From positions 48,319 through 68,318 of the forward strand of contig PPNB01000032.1 in the NCBI GenBank assembly GCA_003707115.1: a stretch of DNA of 20,000 nucleotides, written 5' to 3'. Shown in pieces: positions 5,469 through 20,000 of this stretch. The stretch is from Tortispora ganteri (taxonomy: Eukaryota). Position 1 is the stretch's first letter. Each line of letters starts with the position of its first letter. The notes under the pieces are model-generated. The model did no database searches and had not been told where the DNA came from. It saw only the letters and a list, made by a program, of their open reading frames with translations. A program made the translations under genes and the position numbers.

Positions 5469-6917
5469 CTATTCGGTCTTGTATTTCCAGTCAAGGTACG
5501 GTGCTTCCTTAGACACTGTCTTGCGCTCCAATATATCTTTAACCTTCAGAGTGACACCTCTTGTCTTGGATCTTTGACGCTGCACAAAGGCTTCTAAACA
5601 CTCTTTGGCAGTAGCCTTGTAAGAACGATTAGAACCATCATTACCAGTAATATAGTCACTAACTGCAGCTTCTGTAGGAAGTCCAAAGCTGTAGGGCTGT
5701 TGAGTGTAATCAGGTGCAGAAGGGTCTACAGGAAGGGATGGCACGTCGGGTCTTTTGACGAAAAATTCTTCGATGTCGGCTTCCTTGATATCATCCAAAG
5801 ACGCAGGATTCCATTCGGGTTTCTTTGGAGGCTTGTGGATAAGCTTCGATTCAACACCTTCAACGAAATCGCCTGTTAACATGAACTGAGCAGCGACTAT
5901 ATTCTCGAGCTGGAGCACGGCCTTGATGCTGAGTGATCGGCCAAAGTCGTACAGACGGCACGAAACAGCAACAGAAGTAGGTGATCGTTGAAGAATAGTG
6001 GCGAGCGATTTTTGTGCAAATTCAGACTCGTCAGCGCGCAACGCAGCAAGCAGCGAATCAGGACGTCGGCTCTGGAATAAGTGATCGAGTTTCTCCCGAG
6101 TCTCACCCACGAGGAAAGGGGCAGGAGTGTAGTCTTCCGGCACGTCTTCAGCAAACTCTTCGATAGCGTTATTGACTGTCTCAAAGAACTTAGATGACGT
6201 GGGATCTGAAGAGGAGAGCTCCGAAAGGCGCTTTTCGAGGTCGGGTAGACGGTTGGAGGGCACATAGTGGGTAGCGACGCCAGCTAAGACATTATCGTAG
6301 CCTTTGAGGCGAGCAGAAGTCAATGCAAGATATAGACCAACGCGGCCGTCGAGTCTGGGCAAGAAGAATGATCCACCGACGTCCGGGAAGAAACCTATGT
6401 CGGTTTCTGGCATAGCGAACAAAGTCTTCTCGGTAGCGATACGGAACGGTGCGTGCACAGAAAGACCTACACCGCCACCCATAGTGATTCCGTGCATGAT
6501 AGATATGTAGGGTTTAGAGTATGTAGCAATAGAATAATTCAAGGTGTATTCAAGGTTGAAGAAAGCAGCGCTTTTGCGAGCGCCTTCGACACCTGACTTG
6601 TTTTGAGTAGCAAGTTCAGCAATATCACCACCGGCACAAAGTGCCTTATCTCCCGCACCTTTGAGCAATACAATTGCAGCATCTGAAGATTCCCATTCTT
6701 TTAGTCTGGGCAAAATTTTGCCGGCCATTGAGGCGTTAAGCGAGTTGAGTTTCTTTGGACGATTCAAGGTGATCGTTCGCAGTCCGCTGACGGAATTGAA
6801 GAGCACATCATCTTCTTCAGGCGCAGAAACAGTAGAATTCATACGCAGAAAGGTCTGGTTAGTTATTTTACTACGCAATGGCATGGCAGTCCTGCTGAGT
6901 TGCCGCGTTCGGAGCAT
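5469..6917 (-). CDS. EHD3: 3-hydroxyisobutyryl-CoA hydrolase, mitochondrial (crotonase superfamily; yeast Ehd3/mS47)
   Basis: 482 aa. Basic presequence, TLNRPKKLNSLN, LCAGGDI, GITMGGGVGLSVH, FAMPETDIGFFPDVG, DFVEGV, plus the fungal C-terminal extension (FGLPTE...GVTLKVKDILERKT). Confidence 0.93.
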   Translation of the reverse strand: MLRTRQLSRTAMPLRSKITNQTFLRMNSTVSAPEEDDVLFNSVSGLRTITLNRPKKLNSLNASMAGKILPRLKEWESSDAAIVLLKGAGDKALCAGGDIAELATQNKSGVEGARKSAAFFNLEYTLNYSIATYSKPYISIMHGITMGGGVGLSVHAPFRIATEKTLFAMPETDIGFFPDVGGSFFLPRLDGRVGLYLALTSARLKGYDNVLAGVATHYVPSNRLPDLEKRLSELSSSDPTSSKFFETVNNAIEEFAEDVPEDYTPAPFLVGETREKLDHLFQSRRPDSLLAALRADESEFAQKSLATILQRSPTSVAVSCRLYDFGRSLSIKAVLQLENIVAAQFMLTGDFVEGVESKLIHKPPKKPEWNPASLDDIKEADIEEFFVKRPDVPSLPVDPSAPDYTQQPYSFGLPTEAAVSDYITGNDGSNRSYKATAKECLEAFVQRQRSKTRGVTLKVKDILERKTVSKEAPYLDWKYKTE

Positions 6918-7060
6918 TTGCAGTTAGTCGGTCGGTGTGTTGGTTTCGGTGGAGGGAGGGGCAGATTTAGTAAGTAGGGTTAGGTTTCGGTTAGCGATCA
7001 ATTACAAAGTATTGCGACAACAAGGTGTGATACACGTATTAAGACAATAGCGTAAGAGAC

Positions 7061-8299
7061 TCAACGGCCTTCTACGGGTGCCTGGAGGAGCTCAGGGTAC
7101 TTCGAGACAACGTAGTCAAGGTCTTTATCGCCGCGACCGGAGAGGTTGACGAGAATTGAGGCGTCCGGGTACTTTTTAGCGAGCTTGATAGCGTAGGCGA
7201 TGGCGTGCGCTGATTCAAGAGCAGGAATGATGCCTTCAAAACGAGAGAGAGTAAAGAAAGCTTCGGCAGTTTCCTGGTCAGTAGCACCAGCACCCTTTTC
7301 AGTGCGGCCTTCGGTGGCGAGATAAGCGTGCTCAGGACCGACTGACGGGTAGTCGAGGCCTGAAGCGATGGAGTGGACCGGCGCCGGTTCGCCTTCCTTG
7401 TTATGGAGCATGATTGACTTGAACCCGTGCATGACACCGTCAGAACCATGGCTGATGGAGGCAGCGTGGTCACCAAGCTTGCTAGTACCTTTGCCGAGCG
7501 GCTCAACAGCGTGGAGCTTGACAGTAGAGTCGTCAATGAAACCTGAGAAGATGCCCATAGCGTTTGAGCCACCTCCGCAGCAGGCTACAACATGGTCCGG
7601 CAATTCGCCGATCAAGTCGAGAAACTGTTCGCGGGCCTCGATACCTACTATTTTCTGAAACTCGCGCACCATATAAGGGAACGGGTGCGGGCCAACAACA
7701 GAGCCGATACAGTACAAGATATTTTCGGGGTCTTCGAGGTATGCCATGAATGCCTTGTCTACGGCTTCTTTAAGCGTCTGAAGACCTTCAGTTGCAGGAA
7801 TGACTTTTGCGCCAAGGATTTCCATGCGAACAACGTTTGGTTTTTCCTTCTCCATGTCAACGGCGCCCATATATATATCGCATTCGAGACCAAAATAGGC
7901 AGCAGCAGTAGCTAAAGCGACACCATGTTGACCAGCACCAGTTTCAGCGATGACTTTCTTTTTGCCCATGTGCTTTGCAAGCAACACTTCGGCCATACAG
8001 TGGTTCAACTTGTGCGCTCCCATGTGGTTGAGGTCCTCGCGTTTAAGGTAGATGCGACCACCACCGATGTGGTTCGACAATCGTTTAGCGTACGAGATAG
8101 GTGTCGGGCGGCCCTGATAGTTTTTGCGGATAGACCGCAATTCCGCTACGTAGTCGGCAGACTTCGAAATACGCTTATACTCAGCGTAAATTTTGTCCAT
8201 CTCCGTCTGGAGATTTGGCGGGATAAATGAGCCACCATAGTTGCCAAAGTAGCCCTTGTCATTGGGGACGTGCAGCAGATAGGGTTTAGGAAGTGTCAT
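7061..8299 (-). CDS. trpB: Stand-alone tryptophan synthase beta subunit, bacterial type (no fused alpha domain)
   Basis: 412 aa. [30 protein letters not shown] (PLP lysine), AETGAGQHG (catalytic Glu), [44 protein letters not shown] and NLSGRGDKD. No alpha-subunit coding sequence upstream. Confidence 0.96.
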
Positions 8300-9175: not shown

Positions 9176-12025
9176 ATGTCATCTGATACAGCGCAACGAC
9201 CCTTGCGCGAAGAAGAGCATTCCTCCCTCAACTCGGCCTTCTTCGGCAGACTCTACCCTTCCTCTACTGCATCCGCCGGTAACCCACCCAGACCCCAGTC
9301 ACCTATGGCTGTTCACAACAGACAGCCGCAGATCCCGCCACTGTCACCTTCACTCAACTTAGACTCTGATCTCCTTCTCAAGTACGCTCAGCGACCACCC
9401 TCACCTCAGCACTCGCACGCTCCGCTCACACATCCACAACGTGACCCGGACCCTGCATTGTACCCATTCATACCAAATGCCCCCTCAATCGACCCGCCTG
9501 ACTCTCGCCGTAACTCCCGTTCGCAGTTCTCTCGCCTTAGTTCAATGTTACCATCATCGAAATCATTTCGCTTCTCGCATAGACCGTCTTCAGCGAATCG
9601 CCAGCGCGAAGTCGACGATTTCGACGACGACGACGACTACCCTAGCAAGGCCGGTAACATGAACTTCCCCTCCTCGAACCTTCAAATCCTCCAGAGTCAT
9701 CAGCACGATCTTGGCAGATACCCGCAGCTCGACGCAACCGGCATGTCCATGCGCTCGATTGATTCTACCGCTCCCTTCATTCCCTCTATTGGCGAGAGCC
9801 ACCTCCCTACCACCCCGCTCCGCCGTGACATCATGGAACACCAGCAGGCAGAGCGCATGATGCGCATGAGGTCCGGTCAGAACTCTAGGCGAAGTAACAA
9901 CGGCGCTGGTTCGTCTGTAGGAATGTACCCGCTTCCTCCTCACAGCGCTCCCCCGGGACCGTACTACCAGCAGCCCAACGCTATGCCGCACTATGGTGCT
10001 GGCTATCATAATGGTCCAGGACCGTCCCCTCAAGTATATCCTCCACAACATTACGCGGCGTACCCTCAGCCTCAAGGTCCTATGCCACGCTATCCTGCAC
10101 CACCACCAAACCAGCAGCTACCGCCTAACGGTTTGCGCCCTAAAATTAGCCCCTACCCACTGCGGCAAAACCCAGCTGTTCCCTACTCAGATTCACCGGG
10201 CAATTCTGAACCACAGGAAAACTTACAGCCCCCGCAGGAACGCCTGAAAACCGAACTCGATGATTCGCCGAAATGTTTCAGTCGCGCCACTGGGCCCAAA
10301 GACGGTCCACGCAAGCCTGATAGTTTAGACAACGTGACTTACAGAGATGACACAAATACAGGCTCGGTTCCTTCTCTGACTACAGCCTCTGTTTCGTCTC
10401 CATCTGTGCCTGAAACATATGAGGAGGATATTCGAAACCTCACAATAGAACTAGCAGACTCTTTGAAGCGCGAAAGTCAGCTGGAAAGCCTCGTACAAGA
10501 ACTTGGTGGTGTGCTTCCTGCATCTTCAGCCCGTCGTAGATCGTTGCTGGATTCTCTGAGCTTACCGTCATCAAAGGGCTCGCCGTTGACTCCAGGTGCT
10601 AAAGACCTTGCGGACGGCGGCTTGAATATGTCACTCTCTGATTCAGTAGAGACTTTCTACTTGAATGAATCTGGCTCGCCTGTCAAGATCTCGTCAAAGT
10701 CTCGCATAGTGTCCTCCAGAGAACTTATCCTGGAAAAGAAATTGCGTCAGGAGGCGCAGGAAAAGTCTCAGATGCGAATTGACCTGCTTGCACGCATTGA
10801 GGAAGAGACAAATGCCCGAAAAGCGCTGGAAGCCAAACTTAAAGACCAGGAAGACCTGAAAACGGTCCCTGTTAATGGCAACTCTGAAGAGTTGTCGGCG
10901 CTTGCATCAATCGAGCTTCAGAAAGAGAACGAGCTTCTTAAAAAGCGCCTAGAGGGAATTGAGATGTATTACAGTGAAGAGTTCCAGACGAAGCTGTATA
11001 ATTCTATCTCCAATGAGAACAGTGGAGAACTGCCGAAGTCTGCCCTTATTACACATTCGAATAACAATAGATCCTCTGCGTCAGTTATGGGACAGATTTT
11101 TGCTAACGCTGAGCCGCCAGTGCTTCTTGAGCACATATCGCAGCTGGAATCAGCTAGACAGTGCTTAAAATCAGTTGTGTTGTCTTGTACAAAGCGCGAA
11201 CAACTGCTAAAGGAAGGTTATGAGAAGCGTTTGGCTCATTACGAGAACGCGCTTGCACTTGAACGAAGTCGCGTTGAATTATACAGCCGAGCGCGGAAGC
11301 CGCCGGCATATGTGCGTGAAGTTTCACTTGCACTGCTTGAAACAAAGAGACTAGTTCAAGCGAGTGCCGCTGATATCGAGATTCTCGCTAGCTTGACAGA
11401 CAAACCGGCAGTTGATTCGTTGTTGGTTGAACAGGTGAAAAGAATCAGGAATGTTGTTGAAGAAACGGGAAAGTATCTGAACGACAAAACTGCTGTGCTT
11501 GAGGGTACTTTGCAAGAGGAAGACCTTGAAGAGATGGAACCTGTACTATTGGAATCCGCATACCGTTTGCTACAGGAAGCGTATGCGAATGCATTAGACC
11601 GGATTGATCTGCTTGAAGGCGGCTCTTCTATTAAAATGGAGTTGCTTCCACCTTCGTTAAGCTCGAATATGCGCAACGAGAAGCGGAGGTCTGCTATTCT
11701 GAAGAGTCCTGCTCTGCAATGGGCGATACAGAATAGCCCAGACCGACGACGTGGATCTAAACGGATATCACGGATGTCCACAGCGATCAACTCAGTACAT
11801 ATTAGTGGCACGACGCCTCCTGTGCCTACTACGCCTAAGGAAGTGTCAGTACTAAAAGAGAGAATTGAAGAGCTCGAAGATAGTTTAAAGAAATCTGAAT
11901 CTGAGATGCGTGAAGTTGTGGAAAGGATGCAAACTGCGCAGATTGAGTGTTTATCGCTTGTGAACGAACGTGATGCTGCAATTATCCATATTCAACAACT
12001 TGTCGCACAACAGCAAGAAGAATGA
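9176..12025 (+). CDS. Uncharacterised fungal protein: Pro/Gln/Ser-rich disordered N-terminal half and coiled-coil C-terminal half
   Basis: 949-aa uninterrupted ORF with a low-complexity N-terminus (PPGPYYQQP, PAPPPNQQLPP). Heptad-like E/K/L-rich segments include EDIRNLTIELADSLKRESQLESLV, EKKLRQEAQEKSQMRIDL and ERIEELEDSLKKSESEMREVVERMQTAQ. Confidence 0.85.
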   Translation: MSSDTAQRPLREEEHSSLNSAFFGRLYPSSTASAGNPPRPQSPMAVHNRQPQIPPLSPSLNLDSDLLLKYAQRPPSPQHSHAPLTHPQRDPDPALYPFIPNAPSIDPPDSRRNSRSQFSRLSSMLPSSKSFRFSHRPSSANRQREVDDFDDDDDYPSKAGNMNFPSSNLQILQSHQHDLGRYPQLDATGMSMRSIDSTAPFIPSIGESHLPTTPLRRDIMEHQQAERMMRMRSGQNSRRSNNGAGSSVGMYPLPPHSAPPGPYYQQPNAMPHYGAGYHNGPGPSPQVYPPQHYAAYPQPQGPMPRYPAPPPNQQLPPNGLRPKISPYPLRQNPAVPYSDSPGNSEPQENLQPPQERLKTELDDSPKCFSRATGPKDGPRKPDSLDNVTYRDDTNTGSVPSLTTASVSSPSVPETYEEDIRNLTIELADSLKRESQLESLVQELGGVLPASSARRRSLLDSLSLPSSKGSPLTPGAKDLADGGLNMSLSDSVETFYLNESGSPVKISSKSRIVSSRELILEKKLRQEAQEKSQMRIDLLARIEEETNARKALEAKLKDQEDLKTVPVNGNSEELSALASIELQKENELLKKRLEGIEMYYSEEFQTKLYNSISNENSGELPKSALITHSNNNRSSASVMGQIFANAEPPVLLEHISQLESARQCLKSVVLSCTKREQLLKEGYEKRLAHYENALALERSRVELYSRARKPPAYVREVSLALLETKRLVQASAADIEILASLTDKPAVDSLLVEQVKRIRNVVEETGKYLNDKTAVLEGTLQEEDLEEMEPVLLESAYRLLQEAYANALDRIDLLEGGSSIKMELLPPSLSSNMRNEKRRSAILKSPALQWAIQNSPDRRRGSKRISRMSTAINSVHISGTTPPVPTTPKEVSVLKERIEELEDSLKKSESEMREVVERMQTAQIECLSLVNERDAAIIHIQQLVAQQQEE

Positions 12026-13517: not shown

Positions 13518-14160
13518 TGAGTCAACTCGCAAATCACCGCTACAAGAAGCAAACAATACTAAAATCACCGCAGTTAACTATATCGGCATCTTTCATTGTG
13601 TGAAAATAATTACCGAATGTACCGCCTTGCTTCACCTTTCAAAATGCTGAACCATTAGCTGCTCGTTTCCGCAGTTACTATTTAGAGTTTCTATGCAAAT
13701 TTAATGGCACCGCGGCACTTTGGCCGTTTCTGGCACTAATACACATAACTAATGCCTATCGTTGCTACTGCTGCCGCCGCAAACACTATCATCTACTCTA
13801 AATATCTGCAAACTGTTCCCTACCTGGCAATCTTGCCAGCATGAATTCAACTTTACGGGAACTTCAAACTTGACATATCGGTTACCCTCTATACGCGCGG
13901 TATCATCGCTCCTAATATGGTACAGATGCGCTTAATGCGCACGCTCTAGGCTTCGGGATCTACGATTTTAGGCTTGAGGTGTATACTGCCACCTCTTCTC
14001 AACCAATCACACTCCTTTAGTTAGTCCCATCACCGCTCTATACGCGATAAGCGATTATCACGTGACTTTAAAGTTGCCTTAATCTTCACTTTCCGCAGTT
14101 TTGCTCTGAATGGATATCACCGTAGTAGAAGCTTATCGCTCTAATGGAAAACTATAAGTA
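13518..14160. promoter_or_regulatory. Divergent promoter (hydrolase / amine oxidase) with repeated motifs
   Basis: TGAGTCA 13518-13524. ATCACCG at 13533, 13564, 14029 and 14116. CCGCAGTT at 13568, 13669 and 14093. CTCTATACGCG at 13887 and 14036. GATAAG 14046, CTTATC 14132, TCACGTGAC 14058-14066, and TATAAG 14153. Confidence 0.5.
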
Positions 14161-16279: not shown

Positions 16280-18109
16280 TTATGATACACGGCGTTCCAG
16301 TATGAGATCTCCTAAAGGTGTCTCGCTGAGTCCTGTGGAATGTTCGTAGATGGTTTTTCCGCGAAGTATCGTTTCCATTACGCGGCCTCTTAGACGCATT
16401 CCCACGTACGGGCTGATCTTGTTCTTGTAGTAAACTTGGTCGAGAAGGAGCGGCTCATCAGCGAAAGTCGCGTCGAAAATTACAATATCGGCATCCTTGC
16501 CCTCAGTGAGCGATCCCTTACGGTGGATGAGCCCAGCTTGCACAGATGTATTGTAAGAAGTCCATCTCCATATTGAAAGTAGAATATCGTTTATCTCTGA
16601 TTCAGTGGGCGTTGAGTCGTCGATGAAACTGTACGATCTGCCGGGAGACCGGCCTGGTGATCTTCCCGGTGACGATCCAGGAGATATTCCTAAAGTGTTT
16701 GAGCCCGTAAACATGGAAACACTATCAAAGAAAGCCTTTCGCGGGTTCGGAACTGCTTTCTTCTGCGGTAATGGTGGATGGTAGTGACCAATTCCAGCGC
16801 TCTCTTCACCTATATCTTCCTCGAGACCTGCGCGACGTAAGCATTCAGTCCAAAGAATACGCAGACCAAGGCCTACAGATGATATACCGCCCCATGATGA
16901 AAAAAAGTCACCTTTGCTAAGACCCTTGAGTTCGGGTGTACAAGGGGAATGATCACTGACGACTGTGCGAAGGACAGGGCCAAACGGCTGTTGCAGCTGC
17001 GTCAGACCTGTAGACTGCAATGCGCCGGAGGGGGACGCTGAGCCGTTTGAAAGAGGCGGCGTAAGCGAGGACGGTGAGCCGCTGAACCCTGCTACTGTCT
17101 GCATGTTGGCAAATGACTGTCTGCGACTCAAGATTCCTTTGTTTTCGATGGATCGTATTAGGCCATCCCAGAGAGCTTCCTGATTATCAGCTGTGCGGAT
17201 GGGCGGACAGCATTTAAGATCAGTACGGGAATCCGGGATCGACTCAGCAGCAAATGTAAGGTAATGGAAACATGTTTCTGCAGTAATTCTGACACCATCT
17301 GCACGAGCTTCTTCGAGAGTCTGTAGCGCCTCTGCAGCAGATAGGTGCACTACGTGCAAATTAAGGCGAGGTGCATTCTTTGCTAGCGCACATATCATGC
17401 TAATAGCGTATGTCTCAAAGCTTGGTGGACGTGACTCTAAAAAGGTCTTGTAAGCGGTGATGGGGCCTGTAGGTTGGAGAGGAGGTTGTGAATGCATGAC
17501 AGCGTCACCAACAGAGTTGGAAATTGGCGGTAAAAATTCTGCATGAAACATCAGAATTGTAGGTTGGTCAGCAAGTACTGACATTGCCTCAATAATATCA
17601 TTTTCGTTAACTGCGGGAAACTCGTCTACGCCGGAGTCAATCATGAAACATTTGAACCCGCGGATTCCTGCATCGATCAATGGAAGTAAGTCTTTAGAAT
17701 TACCTGGAACGACACCACCCCAAAAACCGACATCGACCCAACACTGACCCTGAGCTGCGTCAATCTTGCGCTTAAAATTGTCTAAAGTAGTCGTTGGCGG
17801 TATGGCATTCAAAGGCATATCAATGACAGTAGTAACCCCTCCAGCAGCCGCAGACATAGTACCAGTGCGGAATCCTTCCCAGTCTGTACGACCTGGTTCA
17901 TTGAGATGAACATGCGCGTCTACAAGACCAGGCATGACGACATACTCGCCATAGTCATCGAACTTGACCCGATCACCGAGTCGGGCATAATCGGCAGCAG
18001 ATGACCGTTGCGGCAGCACAGCATCTATCTTGCCCGCATCATTTATAATAATAGTTCCAGGTTGAATTTGACCTCCATACAATATACGACGACCGGTTAT
18101 TACTCTCAT
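16280..18109 (-). CDS. DAL1: Allantoinase (amidohydrolase superfamily) with two low-complexity insertions
   Basis: 609 aa. PGLVDAHVHLNEPGRTDWEGF, GGVTTVIDMPLNAIPPT, GFKCFMIDSGVDEFP, HAE, HVVHLS, AETCFHYL, KCCPPIR, SDHSPC, WGGISSVGLG and GKDADIVIFD. Confidence 0.95.
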   Translation of the reverse strand: MRVITGRRILYGGQIQPGTIIINDAGKIDAVLPQRSSAADYARLGDRVKFDDYGEYVVMPGLVDAHVHLNEPGRTDWEGFRTGTMSAAAGGVTTVIDMPLNAIPPTTTLDNFKRKIDAAQGQCWVDVGFWGGVVPGNSKDLLPLIDAGIRGFKCFMIDSGVDEFPAVNENDIIEAMSVLADQPTILMFHAEFLPPISNSVGDAVMHSQPPLQPTGPITAYKTFLESRPPSFETYAISMICALAKNAPRLNLHVVHLSAAEALQTLEEARADGVRITAETCFHYLTFAAESIPDSRTDLKCCPPIRTADNQEALWDGLIRSIENKGILSRRQSFANMQTVAGFSGSPSSLTPPLSNGSASPSGALQSTGLTQLQQPFGPVLRTVVSDHSPCTPELKGLSKGDFFSSWGGISSVGLGLRILWTECLRRAGLEEDIGEESAGIGHYHPPLPQKKAVPNPRKAFFDSVSMFTGSNTLGISPGSSPGRSPGRSPGRSYSFIDDSTPTESEINDILLSIWRWTSYNTSVQAGLIHRKGSLTEGKDADIVIFDATFADEPLLLDQVYYKNKISPYVGMRLRGRVMETILRGKTIYEHSTGLSETPLGDLILERRVS

Positions 18110-18345
18110 TACAATTAGTTAGTGATAATCACAGTTTGCACTAAGACTTTAGTTATGCATACAAAATCACAAAGATAGAATAACAAAAGGAATAGAGGTC
18201 AAAACAGATATAAATAGCTAACTTTGCAATTTATTCAAGCTCAAACTCAGAAATTAAAAACTATAGTATCTGTTAATTTTGAAATTCTTATAAAAAAAGA
18301 ATTCAAAAGCGATTCTAGCAAGTTTTGGCAAAAGAAAAAATCACT

Positions 18346-18416
18346 TCGGAGTTATCCGTTCCTCGATAAGAGTGTTGTTTTCTCAGTTTAACCATAAAAG
18401 TATAATTTCGGATAAA
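18346..18416. promoter_or_regulatory. Putative Zn2Cys6 (UaY/Ppr1-type) site plus GATA sites upstream of DAL1
   Basis: TCGG-AGTTAT-CCGT at 18346-18359 (CGG-N6-CCG) with an overlapping TTATC at 18352-18356. GATAAG 18365-18370 and GATAAA 18411-18416. Confidence 0.55.
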
Positions 18417-18987
18417 GGGTTTACAACTTTACTTTTCTGGTTCCTGTATTACTCTTTACTATTACTAAATATCTATATTAAATTGCCTATAAACCCACTC
18501 TATACAGTCTATTATATATATATTTATTTAAATTAATTCATTTTATTGCTATTCGTTCGCTCAATACAAGAACACGGAGCAAAATTATAAAAACCTTACC
18601 TTCCTGTTAAGGTTCTGTCCAGATATTCTCACATTTTGTTGGTCAAATTGTTTCCTCATTATTTTCATAACAATGTGCTCCTAATCTATTCATCTTTAAA
18701 AGATTATTACAATAAAAAAATATTTATCCACTGTATGGCTTACTTTAAAGGTCACCAATAGCTCTATGTATACTTATTTTGCGCAATATATATGGAGTTC
18801 TCGTTCAAAACCTTGTTCTTTTCTAACAAACGCCGCGGGCGAGTAAACTCTCCTACCAGTGACCGTTGCTATGCAAATCATAAACACCAAAGTTCTGAAA
18901 ATGTTGCAACAGCGATAACGCGAACATTGCAGCGTTGCGAGTGAACTTATAAACGTACAATCCTTTAATTCTACGAATAGATTATCG

Positions 18988-19010
18988 ATAATAATAATAA
19001 TAATAATAAT
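18988..19010. repeat. (ATA)n microsatellite
   Basis: About 7.7 perfect ATA units in the AT-rich intergenic region. Confidence 0.9.
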
Positions 19011-19232
19011 TCTATATATAGATATTTAAGATACTGAAATAGTTCCTGTCAGTTTGACAGACTTTGAGAAATAGCGTGCTCGTCAATGTTTGGACGCCTA
19101 AAGCACAAGCATGTATGAACATTTAACACATGTACTGAACATGAAGTAGCCTAGAGTAAAAGACTTTGCATCTTAGAAATCACACAAATAAGGTTAATAA
19201 TGCTGATTTGCTCAAGATCATGCCAATATTGT

Positions 19233-19292
19233 CTACAAGGACCTGGAAGATGACGATGCTGACGATGATGATGATGAAGACGATGACGACGA

Positions 19293-19334
<42 letters not shown>

Positions 19335-19362
19335 CGATGACGACGACGACGATGACGATGAT

Positions 19363-19411
<49 letters not shown>

Positions 19412-19419
19412 AAGATGAT

Positions 19420-19450
<31 letters not shown>

Positions 19451-20000
19451 AAGAAGACAATGAAGACGATGAAGACGATGACGGCAATGACGACAATGAC
19501 GATGAAGACGATGAAGACGATGACGGCAATGACGACAATGACGATGAAGACGATGAAGACGACGACGACGATGACGATGACAAAGACAATGACAAAGACA
19601 ATGACGAAGAAGGTGTCGCTGAAGACTGGGTTGAGAAGGCCGCAGATATTGAATCTTGCAATATATAGGCATCATGTGATAAACTCTGAGGAGTATTCAA
19701 TAACATATCTGCTAATGAGCTGGAATCTGCAGCAGTCTTAGGAACGGGGTGAACAGTTCCCAACCCAGGGCCAATGAACGTCATGGTGTTGAATGGAAAT
19801 TGGATTTCAATACCTTCAGTATATCCTTCAGAAATGAAAACTAGTCTCATAGGATACCACTCATTAGCCGAAAAATTATAAGAAATTATCCATTCACCTG
19901 TGAAAGACTGTGAATTATTATAGCCGCCTATACCAATTTCACTGATATTTGAACATTGAGCAGCATTTTCACCAATAAACAGGTATCCGTTAGCTTCCAC
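19233..20000 (-). CDS. 3' part of a PA14/GLEYA-like adhesin/flocculin with a poly-Ser stalk, 5'-truncated by the window
   Basis: Open from the window edge. YLFIGENAAQC and NEWYPMRLVF resemble Epa/Flo PA14 motifs, followed by about 120 nearly pure Ser residues. Stop TAG at 19233-19235 with no in-frame GPI signal. Confidence 0.6.
19246..19611. repeat. Imperfect (GAY)n / (TCR)n coding trinucleotide repeat with higher-order duplications
   Basis: About 120 GAC/GAT/GAA triplets. An internal 42-bp unit occurs at 19459-19500 and 19501-19542, with a partial third copy. GACAAAGACAAT is tandemly duplicated at 19579-19602. Confidence 0.97.

What the first reader, a model, noticed from the sequence alone, without database searches (positions are those of the whole stretch)
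7061..8299. Stand-alone bacterial-type TrpB in a fungal chromosome: likely horizontal transfer for indole salvage
Seen: an intact 412-aa beta-only tryptophan synthase with all catalytic motifs. It has no intron, no alpha domain upstream and no mobile-element remnants, and it is flanked by eukaryotic genes (EHD3 only 143 bp away). Known: fungal Trp5 is a roughly 700-aa alpha-beta fusion, and the beta subunit alone condenses free indole with serine. Bacterial-derived TrpB-only genes are described in Cryptosporidium. The signature [45 protein letters not shown] resembles, from my recollection, the orphan non-operon TrpB group of bacteria rather than fungal HKINNA-type beta domains. Inference: this is an old, domesticated HGT, since codon choices look like those of TUF1 by eye. 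It would let the yeast make Trp from, or detoxify, bacterially produced indole, or accept substituted indoles.
Basis: partly seen in the sequence, partly recalled or inferred. Interest (0 to 1): 0.9.

Follow-up and report, generated by a model that had tools for sequence, protein, structure and literature searches.

The report
Bacterial-type stand-alone TrpB in yeast
This yeast chromosome carries an intact, bacterial-type tryptophan synthase beta gene with no alpha partner; several other fungi share it, so it is a real but only moderately unusual old gene transfer.

Summary
Window 7061-8299 (-) is an intact, intron-less 412-aa TrpB1-type enzyme (TIGR00263 511 bits, cut-off 392). It lies between ordinary yeast genes, 143 bp from an EHD3-like gene, and no alpha domain occurs anywhere in the 20 kb. 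The organism is Tortispora caseinolytica or a close relative (98% identical protein).

The protein is 62-72% identical to a discrete bacterial TrpB clade. In 9 of 10 bacterial genomes examined, that clade is a second trpB unlinked to trpA. The protein is only 46% identical to a fungal fused Trp5 beta domain, and an AU test rejects grouping it with Trp5 (p 1e-5).

It is not private to Tortispora. Orthologues in Dipodascopsis, Kuraishia, Komagataella, Ascoidea, Morchella and Rhizina form one ascomycete clade (99/93). This points to an old acquisition with patchy retention. The donor lineage and the number of transfers into fungi are unresolved.

The K. phaffii orthologue is already annotated TRP5-2. 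It coexists with the fused TRP5-1 and has been seen as transcript and peptide.

TrpA-independent synthesis of Trp from indole and serine is the most likely function, but it is untested. The transfer reading is supported; the novelty and interest were overstated.

The parts
7061..8299 (-). Complete coding sequence of a 412-aa stand-alone tryptophan synthase beta subunit (TrpB1 type, orphan-clade member), without intron
7880..8014 (-). Residues 96-140. Holds the Schiff-base lysine K97 (8009-8011), the clade-specific H100, C101, M102 and E104, and the carboxylate-binding loop E119-H125
7562..7576 (-). PLP phosphate-binding loop G242-G-G-S-N246. The preceding C241 is specific to the ascomycete copies
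7352..7354 (-). D316, the active-site aspartate that marks TrpB1 as opposed to TrpB2 enzymes
   Evidence: The TrpB1/TrpB2 criterion is as stated in the Discussion of PMC11917138
8300..9175 (.). 876-bp intergenic region upstream of trpB, shared divergently with the 949-aa ORF at 9176-12025. It has no TGACTC/TGASTCA (Gcn4-type) site and one TATATA at -386
6918..7060 (.). 143-bp spacer between the trpB stop codon and the EHD3-like start codon. It overlaps a two-allele bubble (6997-7115) in the read-derived contigs
5469..6917 (-). Downstream neighbour: EHD3-like enoyl-CoA hydratase family protein (ECH_2, 390 bits). Context only

Best explanation
The ORF is a functional, cytosolic, stand-alone TrpB1-type PLP enzyme. 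It belongs to a discrete bacterial subfamily that, in bacteria, is a second trpB copy unlinked to trpA. An early ascomycete, or an even earlier fungus, acquired it from bacteria. It has since been inherited vertically and kept in only some lineages: Tortispora, Dipodascopsis, Kuraishia, Komagataella, Ascoidea, Morchella and Rhizina. Most likely it condenses free indole with L-serine to give L-tryptophan without an alpha subunit, and it works beside the normal fused Trp5 as an indole-scavenging or indole-detoxifying route.

Shown here: family membership, intact catalytic residues, the bacterial affinity, exclusion from the Trp5 lineage, genuine chromosomal location, and ascomycete monophyly.

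Inferred: the direction and age of the transfer (my odds about 0.85), and the indole + serine stand-alone chemistry and its salvage role (about 0.55).
For: Family and residues.

Sequence affinity:
- 62-72% identity to bacterial and metagenomic proteins.
- In the five bacterial genomes where both copies were extracted, 63-69% to the orphan copy against 46-50% to the canonical TrpB of the same genome.
- 46% to the Penicillium olsonii Trp5 beta domain and 48% to diatom fusions.

Careful ML tree (71 rows):
- The orphan clade has support 100/99. It is separated (99/97) from the canonical TrpBs, the Trp5 beta domain, diatoms and a plant.
- The ascomycete copies form one clade (99/93), made of Pezizomycetes (100/99) plus Saccharomycotina (98/98).
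- AU test: holding the ascomycete clade with Trp5 costs 92.6 lnL, p 1e-5.

Bacterial context:
- 9 of 10 genomes carry two trpB genes above the cut-off.
- In all 9 genomes that have trpA, trpA lies near the canonical copy (within 600 bp in 7; 4.7 kb and 11.9 kb in the other 2). The orphan copy lies on another contig or at least 128 kb away.
- The tenth genome, a 1.6-Mb Cloacimonadales chromosome, has only the orphan-type trpB and no trpA.
- None of 54 neighbouring ORFs in 16 loci is a trp gene.

Genuine yeast gene:
- Read-derived contigs of two runs overlap from EHD3 through trpB to the upstream gene, at depth 73-79 throughout.
- Orthologues sit on 0.57-3.3-Mb scaffolds.
- Codon usage correlates with the other 10 ORFs of the window at r 0.64, within their own range of 0.16-0.81.
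- 7 of 7 nucleotide differences from the run contigs are synonymous.

Coexistence with Trp5 and expression, by orthology: the K. phaffii supplements list TRP5-1, with a peptide at residues 382-393, and TRP5-2, whose peptide at residues 98-109 matches P0008 exactly. The TRP5-2 transcript has log2FC 0.61, p 0.0064, on methanol.
Against: - No enzyme assay, no expression data for Tortispora (no RNA run listed) and no whole genome. The presence of a fused TRP5 in this organism was therefore not checked.
- The donor is unresolved. Placing the ascomycete clade outside all crown bacterial orphans is not rejected (p-AU 0.106). In a first quick tree rooted on a very long TrpB2 branch, the fungi sat near the base of the clade.
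- One origin for all fungal copies is not rejected (p 0.13-0.47), so the number of transfers is open.
- 28 positions differ between the orphan clade and the canonical enzymes. Several of them are invariant in the 17 canonical rows sampled. This could mean changed specificity rather than only TrpA independence.
- Only 2 of the 6 LBCA 'stand-alone' residues are shared.
- There is no Gcn4-type site upstream.
- Only one fungal Trp5 sequence was available for the tree.
Confidence: 0.6

Rival explanations
1. The orphan-clade enzyme has a changed job. It catalyses another PLP beta-substitution, with a different nucleophile or amino-acid donor, or serves specialised metabolism. Tryptophan formation is not its main role.
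For: 28 clade-specific positions, several replacing residues that are invariant in the 17 sampled canonical TrpBs: N to H100, Q to E104, R to K151, W to Y187, A to S313. The Fusarium relatives are predicted as fusions with a fungal transcription-factor domain, a monooxygenase or a hydrolase, which hints at gene clusters. The clade persists beside a complete trpBA pair in 9 of 10 bacterial genomes.
Against: All residues known to be needed for the indole + serine reaction are kept, and the protein scores above the equivalog cut-off for trpB. A Cloacimonadales genome has this copy as its only trpB. The bacterial neighbourhoods show no conserved partner gene.
Confidence: 0.2
2. The protein does not act alone. 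It binds the alpha domain of the fused Trp5, or another partner, and acts as an alternative beta subunit.
For: K. phaffii keeps both TRP5-1 and TRP5-2. The fold and the COMM-domain region are conserved.
Against: In bacteria the copy is never found beside trpA, and one genome has it without any trpA. In a fused Trp5 the alpha domain already has a beta partner in cis (established knowledge of fungal Trp5, recalled).
Confidence: 0.1
3. It is an ancient eukaryotic or fungal paralogue inherited vertically, with no transfer from bacteria into fungi. The bacterial copies would be the recipients, or the similarity would be retained ancestry.
For: The ascomycete gene tree broadly follows the species tree. 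A single clade of all fungal copies is not rejected. The ascomycete clade may lie outside the crown bacterial group (p 0.106).
Against: Bacterial members span many phyla, and bacterial lineages (Roizmanbacteria, Cloacimonadales) branch below the fungi. A clade of all 37 crown bacterial rows that excludes all eukaryotes is rejected at p-AU 0.03-0.04. The fungal distribution is very patchy.
Confidence: 0.07
4. It arose by fission of the fungal fused TRP5 gene, leaving the beta half as a separate gene.
For: None beyond the shared family.
Against: 46% identity to a Trp5 beta domain against 62-72% to bacterial orphans. AU p 1e-5. K. phaffii has an intact fused TRP5-1 as well.
Confidence: 0.01
5. 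It is bacterial contamination or a chimeric assembly.
For: None found.
Against: Contigs of two runs overlap across both junctions at even depth, though those runs may include the source sample. Codon usage is host-like. Orthologues lie on megabase scaffolds of seven other named fungal genera. A peptide is detected in K. phaffii.
Confidence: 0.01

Closest known systems
Canonical bacterial and archaeal TrpB1 (for example Salmonella, Pyrococcus furiosus TrpB1 and the reconstructed LBCA TrpB)
   Same: Same fold-type II PLP family and same catalytic residues. Scores 386-461 bits against solved chains, with the reconstructed LBCA TrpB as the best match. Passes the trpB equivalog model.
   Different: Forms a separate clade (100/99) with 28 diagnostic substitutions. 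In bacteria it is an extra copy away from trpA. Here it sits in a yeast chromosome.
Fungal Trp5 (fused alpha-beta tryptophan synthase; here Penicillium olsonii P0267 and K. phaffii TRP5-1)
   Same: Homologous beta domain and the same expected reaction.
   Different: No alpha domain. 46% identity. Excluded from the Trp5 lineage by the AU test.
K. phaffii TRP5-2 (PP7435_Chr3-0567, F2QVU7)
   Same: Orthologue at 69% identity in the same Saccharomycotina clade. It is stand-alone, 413 aa, and expressed.
   Different: Different species. Its annotation text is copied from S. cerevisiae TRP5. In the passages I saw, its bacterial affinity is not discussed.
TrpB listed among bacterial genes transferred into Neocallimastigomycota (bioRxiv 10.1101/487215, figure legend passage)
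   Same: A bacterial-type TrpB in a fungus. The Neocallimastix protein P0395 falls in the same orphan clade, on a long branch.
   Different: 593 aa with an N-terminal extension and about 50% identity. Its placement is weakly supported, so whether it is the same or a separate event is open.
TrpB2 (indole-salvaging TrpB homologues of archaea and bacteria)
   Same: The proposed role: a high-affinity indole scavenger that works without TrpA, as cited in PMC11917138.
   Different: Not a member. TIGR01415 scores 180 bits against a cut-off of 519, TrpB2 structures score only about 110 bits, and the protein keeps the TrpB1 aspartate.
Pelodictyon luteolum plTrpB, a natural stand-alone TrpB1 (PMC11917138)
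   Same: A TrpB1 with a gene unlinked to trpA and high stand-alone activity. It shows that such enzymes exist.
   Different: That enzyme carries all six LBCA 'Res6' residues, whereas the window protein shares 2 of 6. Its relation to the orphan clade was not tested.

Membership tests
TrpB1 (tryptophan synthase beta, TIGR00263) | Whole-protein score above the curated equivalog cut-off | tested here: met
   511.3 bits against 392.45
TrpB1 (tryptophan synthase beta, TIGR00263) | Schiff-base lysine, catalytic glutamate with the carboxylate loop, PLP phosphate loop, and the serine that contacts the pyridine N | tested here: met
   K97, E119-H125, G242-N246 and S387, aligned to solved TrpBs and invariant in 5 fungal sequences. 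The residue roles are recalled from the literature
TrpB1 (tryptophan synthase beta, TIGR00263) | Active-site aspartate that separates TrpB1 from TrpB2 | tested here: met
   D316 in GLDYP. Criterion as stated in the Discussion of PMC11917138
TrpB1 (tryptophan synthase beta, TIGR00263) | Catalyses indole + L-serine to L-tryptophan | not testable with these tools
   Needs an enzyme assay or complementation
Bacterial orphan (second-copy) TrpB1 clade, unnamed | Falls inside the clade in an ML tree | tested here: met
   100/99 support for the 52-row clade. The 50%-identity cluster representative is P0003, and the next full-length representatives are at most 53% identical
Bacterial orphan (second-copy) TrpB1 clade, unnamed | Carries the clade-specific residues | tested here: met
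   The window has the clade residue at all 28 listed positions, for example H100, C101, E104, K151, Y187, F293, S313
Bacterial orphan (second-copy) TrpB1 clade, unnamed | Encoded away from any trpA | tested here: met
   No alpha-like sequence in the 20-kb window. In the bacteria, 9 of 9 genomes with trpA have it away from this copy
Fungal Trp5 (fused alpha-beta) | N-terminal TrpA domain in the same polypeptide | tested here: not met
   The ORF is 412 aa and beta only. There is no alpha hit in the window and no fused relative above 59% identity
Fungal Trp5 (fused alpha-beta) | Beta domain groups with fungal Trp5 beta domains | tested here: not met
   AU p 1e-5 against one clade with P0267. Only one Trp5 sequence was sampled
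TrpB2 (TIGR01415 / PRK12391) | Score above the family cut-off | tested here: not met
   180.1 bits against cut-offs of 518.85 and 366

The most novel reading that the evidence does not exclude
The orphan TrpB1 clade is a functionally distinct, unnamed subfamily. It would be a TrpA-independent enzyme marked by about 28 fixed substitutions, including replacement of the arginine that (recalled) forms the COMM-domain salt bridge in canonical enzymes. Many bacterial phyla keep it beside trpBA. It would have been captured once by an early ascomycete several hundred million years ago and then lost from most yeasts. Its real role, high-affinity indole scavenging or a different beta-substitution, would then be a conserved and so far uncharacterised piece of both bacterial and fungal amino-acid metabolism. 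It would also be a natural eukaryote-adapted stand-alone TrpB for biocatalysis.
Probability: 0.25. Interest if true: 0.65.

Novelty: new member of a known kind. Interest (0 to 1): 0.45.

Why it matters
The gene is a clean example of a bacterial metabolic gene that became a stable part of yeast chromosomes. It appears to predate the split of budding yeasts and Pezizomycetes and was then lost from most lineages.

It also flags a well-delimited second-copy TrpB subfamily whose physiological role is unknown in bacteria as well.

One carrier is the industrial yeast Komagataella phaffii, where the gene is expressed, so the role can be tested directly by knock-out, indole feeding and kinetics. Stand-alone TrpBs are valued catalysts for making tryptophan analogues, and a natural TrpA-independent, eukaryote-expressed enzyme would be of practical use.

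Tried and rejected
- Whole genome: none is held for the window, so a fused TRP5 in this organism and synteny in relatives could not be checked.
- Earlier findings of this scan: none for this genome.
- RNA evidence: no RNA holder listed.
- Gcn4-type sites: one TGASTCA in the whole window, at 13518, and no TGACTC in the 876 bp upstream of trpB. This gives no support for general amino-acid control.
- LBCA 'Res6' stand-alone residues: the window has D49, R55, T66, S200, F293 and K294, so 2 of 6 are identical. Uninformative.
- Conserved neighbours of the bacterial orphan copies: I scanned 54 ORFs from 16 of the 80 loci. No trp gene and no recurrent partner appeared.
- Protein atlas: the nearest clusters are all bacterial TrpB, which adds nothing.
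- Mobile-element traces: no tRNA genes and only short chance-level repeats.
- Literature:
  - Searches found no paper that describes the yeast stand-alone TrpB or its origin.
  - The hits in PMC7466969 and PMC3532085 were dimethylallyl tryptophan synthases and are irrelevant.
  - The paper I asked for as PMC6291210, a large yeast genome and gene-transfer survey, is not held. Its supplements and those of similar catalogues may list this gene.
- A direct IQ-TREE run on all 71 rows timed out. I repeated it on 52 rows with fast searches and a simpler model.
- The first quick tree, rooted on a very long TrpB2 branch, placed the fungi near the base of the clade. The careful tree without that root did not reproduce this.

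Full report
**Observation**

The window has an ATG-started ORF at 7061-8299 on the minus strand that encodes 412 residues. It matches Pfam PALP (E 2.1e-40). It also matches the NCBIfam equivalog model for trpB, TIGR00263, at 511.3 bits against a cut-off of 392.45. The TrpB2-type model TIGR01415 reaches only 180.1 of the 518.85 bits it needs.

Against solved structures, the best matches are the reconstructed LBCA TrpB (461 bits), Pyrococcus TrpB1 (436 bits) and Salmonella TrpB (about 386 bits). These align end to end with at most one-residue gaps, so there is no intron.

The lysine of the HK motif (K97), E119-H125, the GGGSN loop (242-246), D316 and S387 are all present. All are invariant in five fungal orthologues. 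The roles I give these residues are recalled from the TrpB literature.

The neighbours are ordinary yeast genes: PEX11, CAF17, a CBS protein, mitochondrial EF-Tu, an EHD3-like ECH_2 protein 143 bp downstream, and a copper amine oxidase. tblastn with a fungal and a diatom alpha-beta fusion finds only the beta part and nothing alpha-like in the 20 kb. There are no tRNA genes and no meaningful repeats.

**Whose gene it is, and whether it is real**

The closest database protein is a hypothetical protein of Tortispora caseinolytica NRRL Y-17796, 98% identical and located on a 2.6-Mb scaffold.

Two DNA runs hold the stretch. Their contigs overlap from the EHD3-like gene through trpB into the upstream gene, at depth 73-79 throughout. 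A two-allele bubble lies at 6997-7115, with depths 41.9 and 35. These runs may include the sample the window came from, so this is consistency rather than independent proof.

Codon usage of trpB correlates with the other ten ORFs of the window at r 0.64; their own values range from 0.16 to 0.81. Its GC3 is 0.567. All 7 nucleotide differences between the window and the run contigs inside trpB are synonymous, as are all 7 in the EHD3-like gene. Contamination or chimerism is not a tenable reading.

**Relatives**

A search of 5.8 billion proteins scored 8000 candidates and listed the best 120.
- Seven of the listed proteins are from named fungi: Tortispora 98%, Dipodascopsis tothii 75%, Kuraishia capsulata 73%, two Basidiobolus 73-74%, Komagataella phaffii 69% and Morchella snyderi 69%.
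- The rest are bacterial or metagenomic proteins at 69-73% identity. The named ones are Verrucomicrobiales, Nitratifractor, Sulfurospirillum and Arcobacteraceae.

A profile of five fungal sequences added Ascoidea rubescens and Rhizina undulata.

Among longer proteins, no fused form exceeds 59% identity. The best are Fusarium gene models at 55-59%, in which a TrpB part is merged with unrelated domains. Alpha-beta or other trp-enzyme fusions are 47-52% identical.

In the library clustered at 50% identity, the clade is represented by the Dipodascopsis protein, and the next full-length representatives are at most 53% identical. One of those representatives, P0267, is a 709-aa fused tryptophan synthase of Penicillium olsonii. 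Its beta domain is 46% identical to the window protein.

**What the bacterial relatives are**

In one genome per prokaryote species, 382 of 444 candidate stretches encode a relative. The best 80 loci (54-69% identity) come from many phyla. I examined ten of their genomes.
- Nine have two trpB genes above the TIGR00263 cut-off. One is a higher-scoring canonical copy. The other is the copy related to the window, at 516-538 bits.
- All nine have a single trpA. It lies within 600 bp of the canonical trpB in seven genomes, and 4.7 kb and 11.9 kb from it in the other two. The orphan copy is on another contig or at least 128 kb away.
- The tenth genome, a 1.6-Mb Cloacimonadales chromosome, has only the orphan-type trpB and no trpA.

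In the five genomes from which I extracted both copies, the window protein is 63-69% identical to the orphan copy and 46-50% identical to the canonical one.

I scanned 54 neighbouring ORFs from 16 of the 80 loci. None is a trp gene, and none recurs.

**Phylogeny**

A careful ML tree was built from 71 rows and 409 columns under LG+C20 PMSF. Before building it I dropped rows under 22 id prefixes (listed):
- the TrpB2 outgroup;
- nine long or compositionally odd representatives;
- the near-identical Tortispora reference protein;
- eleven close bacterial duplicates.

The bootstrap had not fully settled when the search ended. The main results are these.
- The orphan clade has support 100/99. It is split (99/97) from the canonical TrpBs, the Penicillium Trp5 beta domain, two diatom fusions and a plant.
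- Within it, the ascomycete copies form one clade (99/93). It is made of Pezizomycetes (Morchella, Rhizina and one unnamed protein; 100/99) and Saccharomycotina (98/98). The Saccharomycotina part contains the window protein, Dipodascopsis, and Kuraishia with Komagataella plus Ascoidea.
- Basidiobolus groups with a Verrucomicrobiales-type set (99/90).
- Fusarium and Neocallimastix sit on long branches.

Several topology tests followed.
- Holding the ascomycete clade together with Trp5 costs 92.6 log-likelihood units, p-AU 1e-5.
- The remaining tests used a reduced 52-row set, fast searches and LG+F+G4.
  - One clade of ascomycetes plus Basidiobolus is not rejected (p 0.45-0.47).
  - One clade of all fungal copies is not rejected (p 0.13).
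  - One clade of ascomycetes plus Fusarium is not rejected (p 0.21-0.22).
  - A clade of all 37 crown bacterial rows that excludes every eukaryote is rejected at p 0.03-0.04.
  - Placing only the ascomycete clade outside the crown bacteria is not rejected (p 0.106).

The bacterial affinity is therefore firm. The number of transfers and the donor lineage are not resolved. The reciprocal monophyly of the two ascomycete subphyla fits one acquisition before their split followed by many losses. A later fungus-to-fungus transfer cannot be excluded.

**Function**

The catalytic apparatus for indole + L-serine is intact, and the protein keeps the TrpB1 aspartate. This is the basis for expecting L-serine rather than O-phosphoserine as substrate. 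The criterion is the one stated in the Discussion of PMC11917138, which I read along with its abstract and the Res6 passages.

TrpA independence is inferred from four points.
- The bacterial members are never found beside trpA.
- One bacterial genome has this copy without any trpA.
- The yeast has no free alpha subunit in this window.
- In K. phaffii both genes exist.

The K. phaffii evidence comes from Russmayer et al. 2015 (PMC4580311). I saw one main-text passage and passages from three supplementary files.
- TRP5-1 (PP7435_Chr2-0601) is listed with a peptide at residues 382-393, a position that implies the long fused protein.
- TRP5-2 (PP7435_Chr3-0567, F2QVU7) is listed with a peptide at residues 98-109 that matches the K. 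phaffii orthologue P0008 exactly.
- The TRP5-2 transcript has log2 fold change 0.61 (p 0.0064) on methanol against glucose.

So the orthologue is expressed and coexists with a normal Trp5. That the same holds in Tortispora is an inference.

The orphan clade, taken as 37 bacterial plus 8 ascomycete rows, differs from the 17 canonical rows at 28 near-fixed positions. Several of these replace residues that are invariant in the canonical rows:
- N to H100;
- Q to E104;
- R to K151;
- W to Y187;
- A to S313.

By recalled Salmonella numbering, K151 corresponds to the arginine of the COMM-domain salt bridge. These changes fit altered regulation or TrpA independence. They equally allow a changed specificity, which is the main rival reading. 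The protein shares only 2 of the 6 LBCA 'stand-alone' residues, so that shortcut gives no answer.

**Comparison with what is known, and novelty**

The protein is a member of TrpB1 by every sequence test. It is not a member of the Trp5 or TrpB2 lineages. Bacterial TrpB is listed among genes transferred into anaerobic gut fungi (bioRxiv 10.1101/487215; figure-legend passage only).

Six literature searches found no paper that describes the yeast stand-alone TrpB or its origin. Large transfer catalogues whose supplements I could not see may list it; one survey I asked for is not held.

The gene is already in public annotation, as 'tryptophan synthase' in several fungi and as TRP5-2 in K. phaffii. 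I therefore rate it a new member of a known kind. What is new here is:
- the delimitation of the second-copy clade;
- its shared presence in Saccharomycotina and Pezizomycetes;
- the link to the expressed K. phaffii gene.

**Verdict**

The transfer interpretation is supported, with the age pushed back well before Tortispora and the donor unresolved. The indole-salvage function is plausible but untested. Interest is moderate (0.45), not 0.9.

Noticed in passing
window 6997-7115: Read-derived contigs of both runs split here into two alleles (depths 41.9 and 35, four differences). The sequenced strain is therefore heterozygous or mixed at the trpB 3' end and EHD3 promoter. The window matches the deeper allele.
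   Followed up: partly
window 9176-12025 (+): 949-aa ORF divergent from trpB, with no Pfam domain at E 0.001 and strong negative GC skew (about -0.33) over its first kilobase.
   Followed up: no
window 18000-19700: AT-rich stretch (GC 0.32-0.38). The 174-aa ORF at 19151-19675 has GC3 of only 0.126 and no Pfam match, and may not be a real gene.
   Followed up: no
P0165 (Heterostelium album, 796 aa): A dictyostelid protein annotated as tryptophan synthase beta, with only a PALP domain, branches at the base of the orphan clade (99/97 for the split from the canonical TrpBs). It is another eukaryote with a non-Trp5-type TrpB.
   Followed up: partly
P0122, P0129, P0130 (Fusarium, 871-1382 aa): Fusarium gene models join an orphan-clade TrpB part (55-59% identity) to a fungal transcription-factor domain, a monooxygenase or hydrolase domains. 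They may be mis-merged neighbours in a gene cluster. They form a long-branch clade of their own.
   Followed up: partly
L074 / G009 (Cloacimonadales chromosome, 1.6 Mb): This genome has a single, orphan-type trpB and no detectable trpA, which suggests tryptophan synthesis from external indole only.
   Followed up: partly
L007:5001-6698: In one Bacteroidales genome the orphan trpB reading frame runs on for about 165 further residues that have no Pfam match.
   Followed up: no
L045:6880-7899: In Arenibacter the orphan trpB lies about 0.7 kb from a 340-aa Beta_elim_lyase family gene on the opposite strand. This was the only amino-acid PLP enzyme seen among the 54 neighbours.
   Followed up: no
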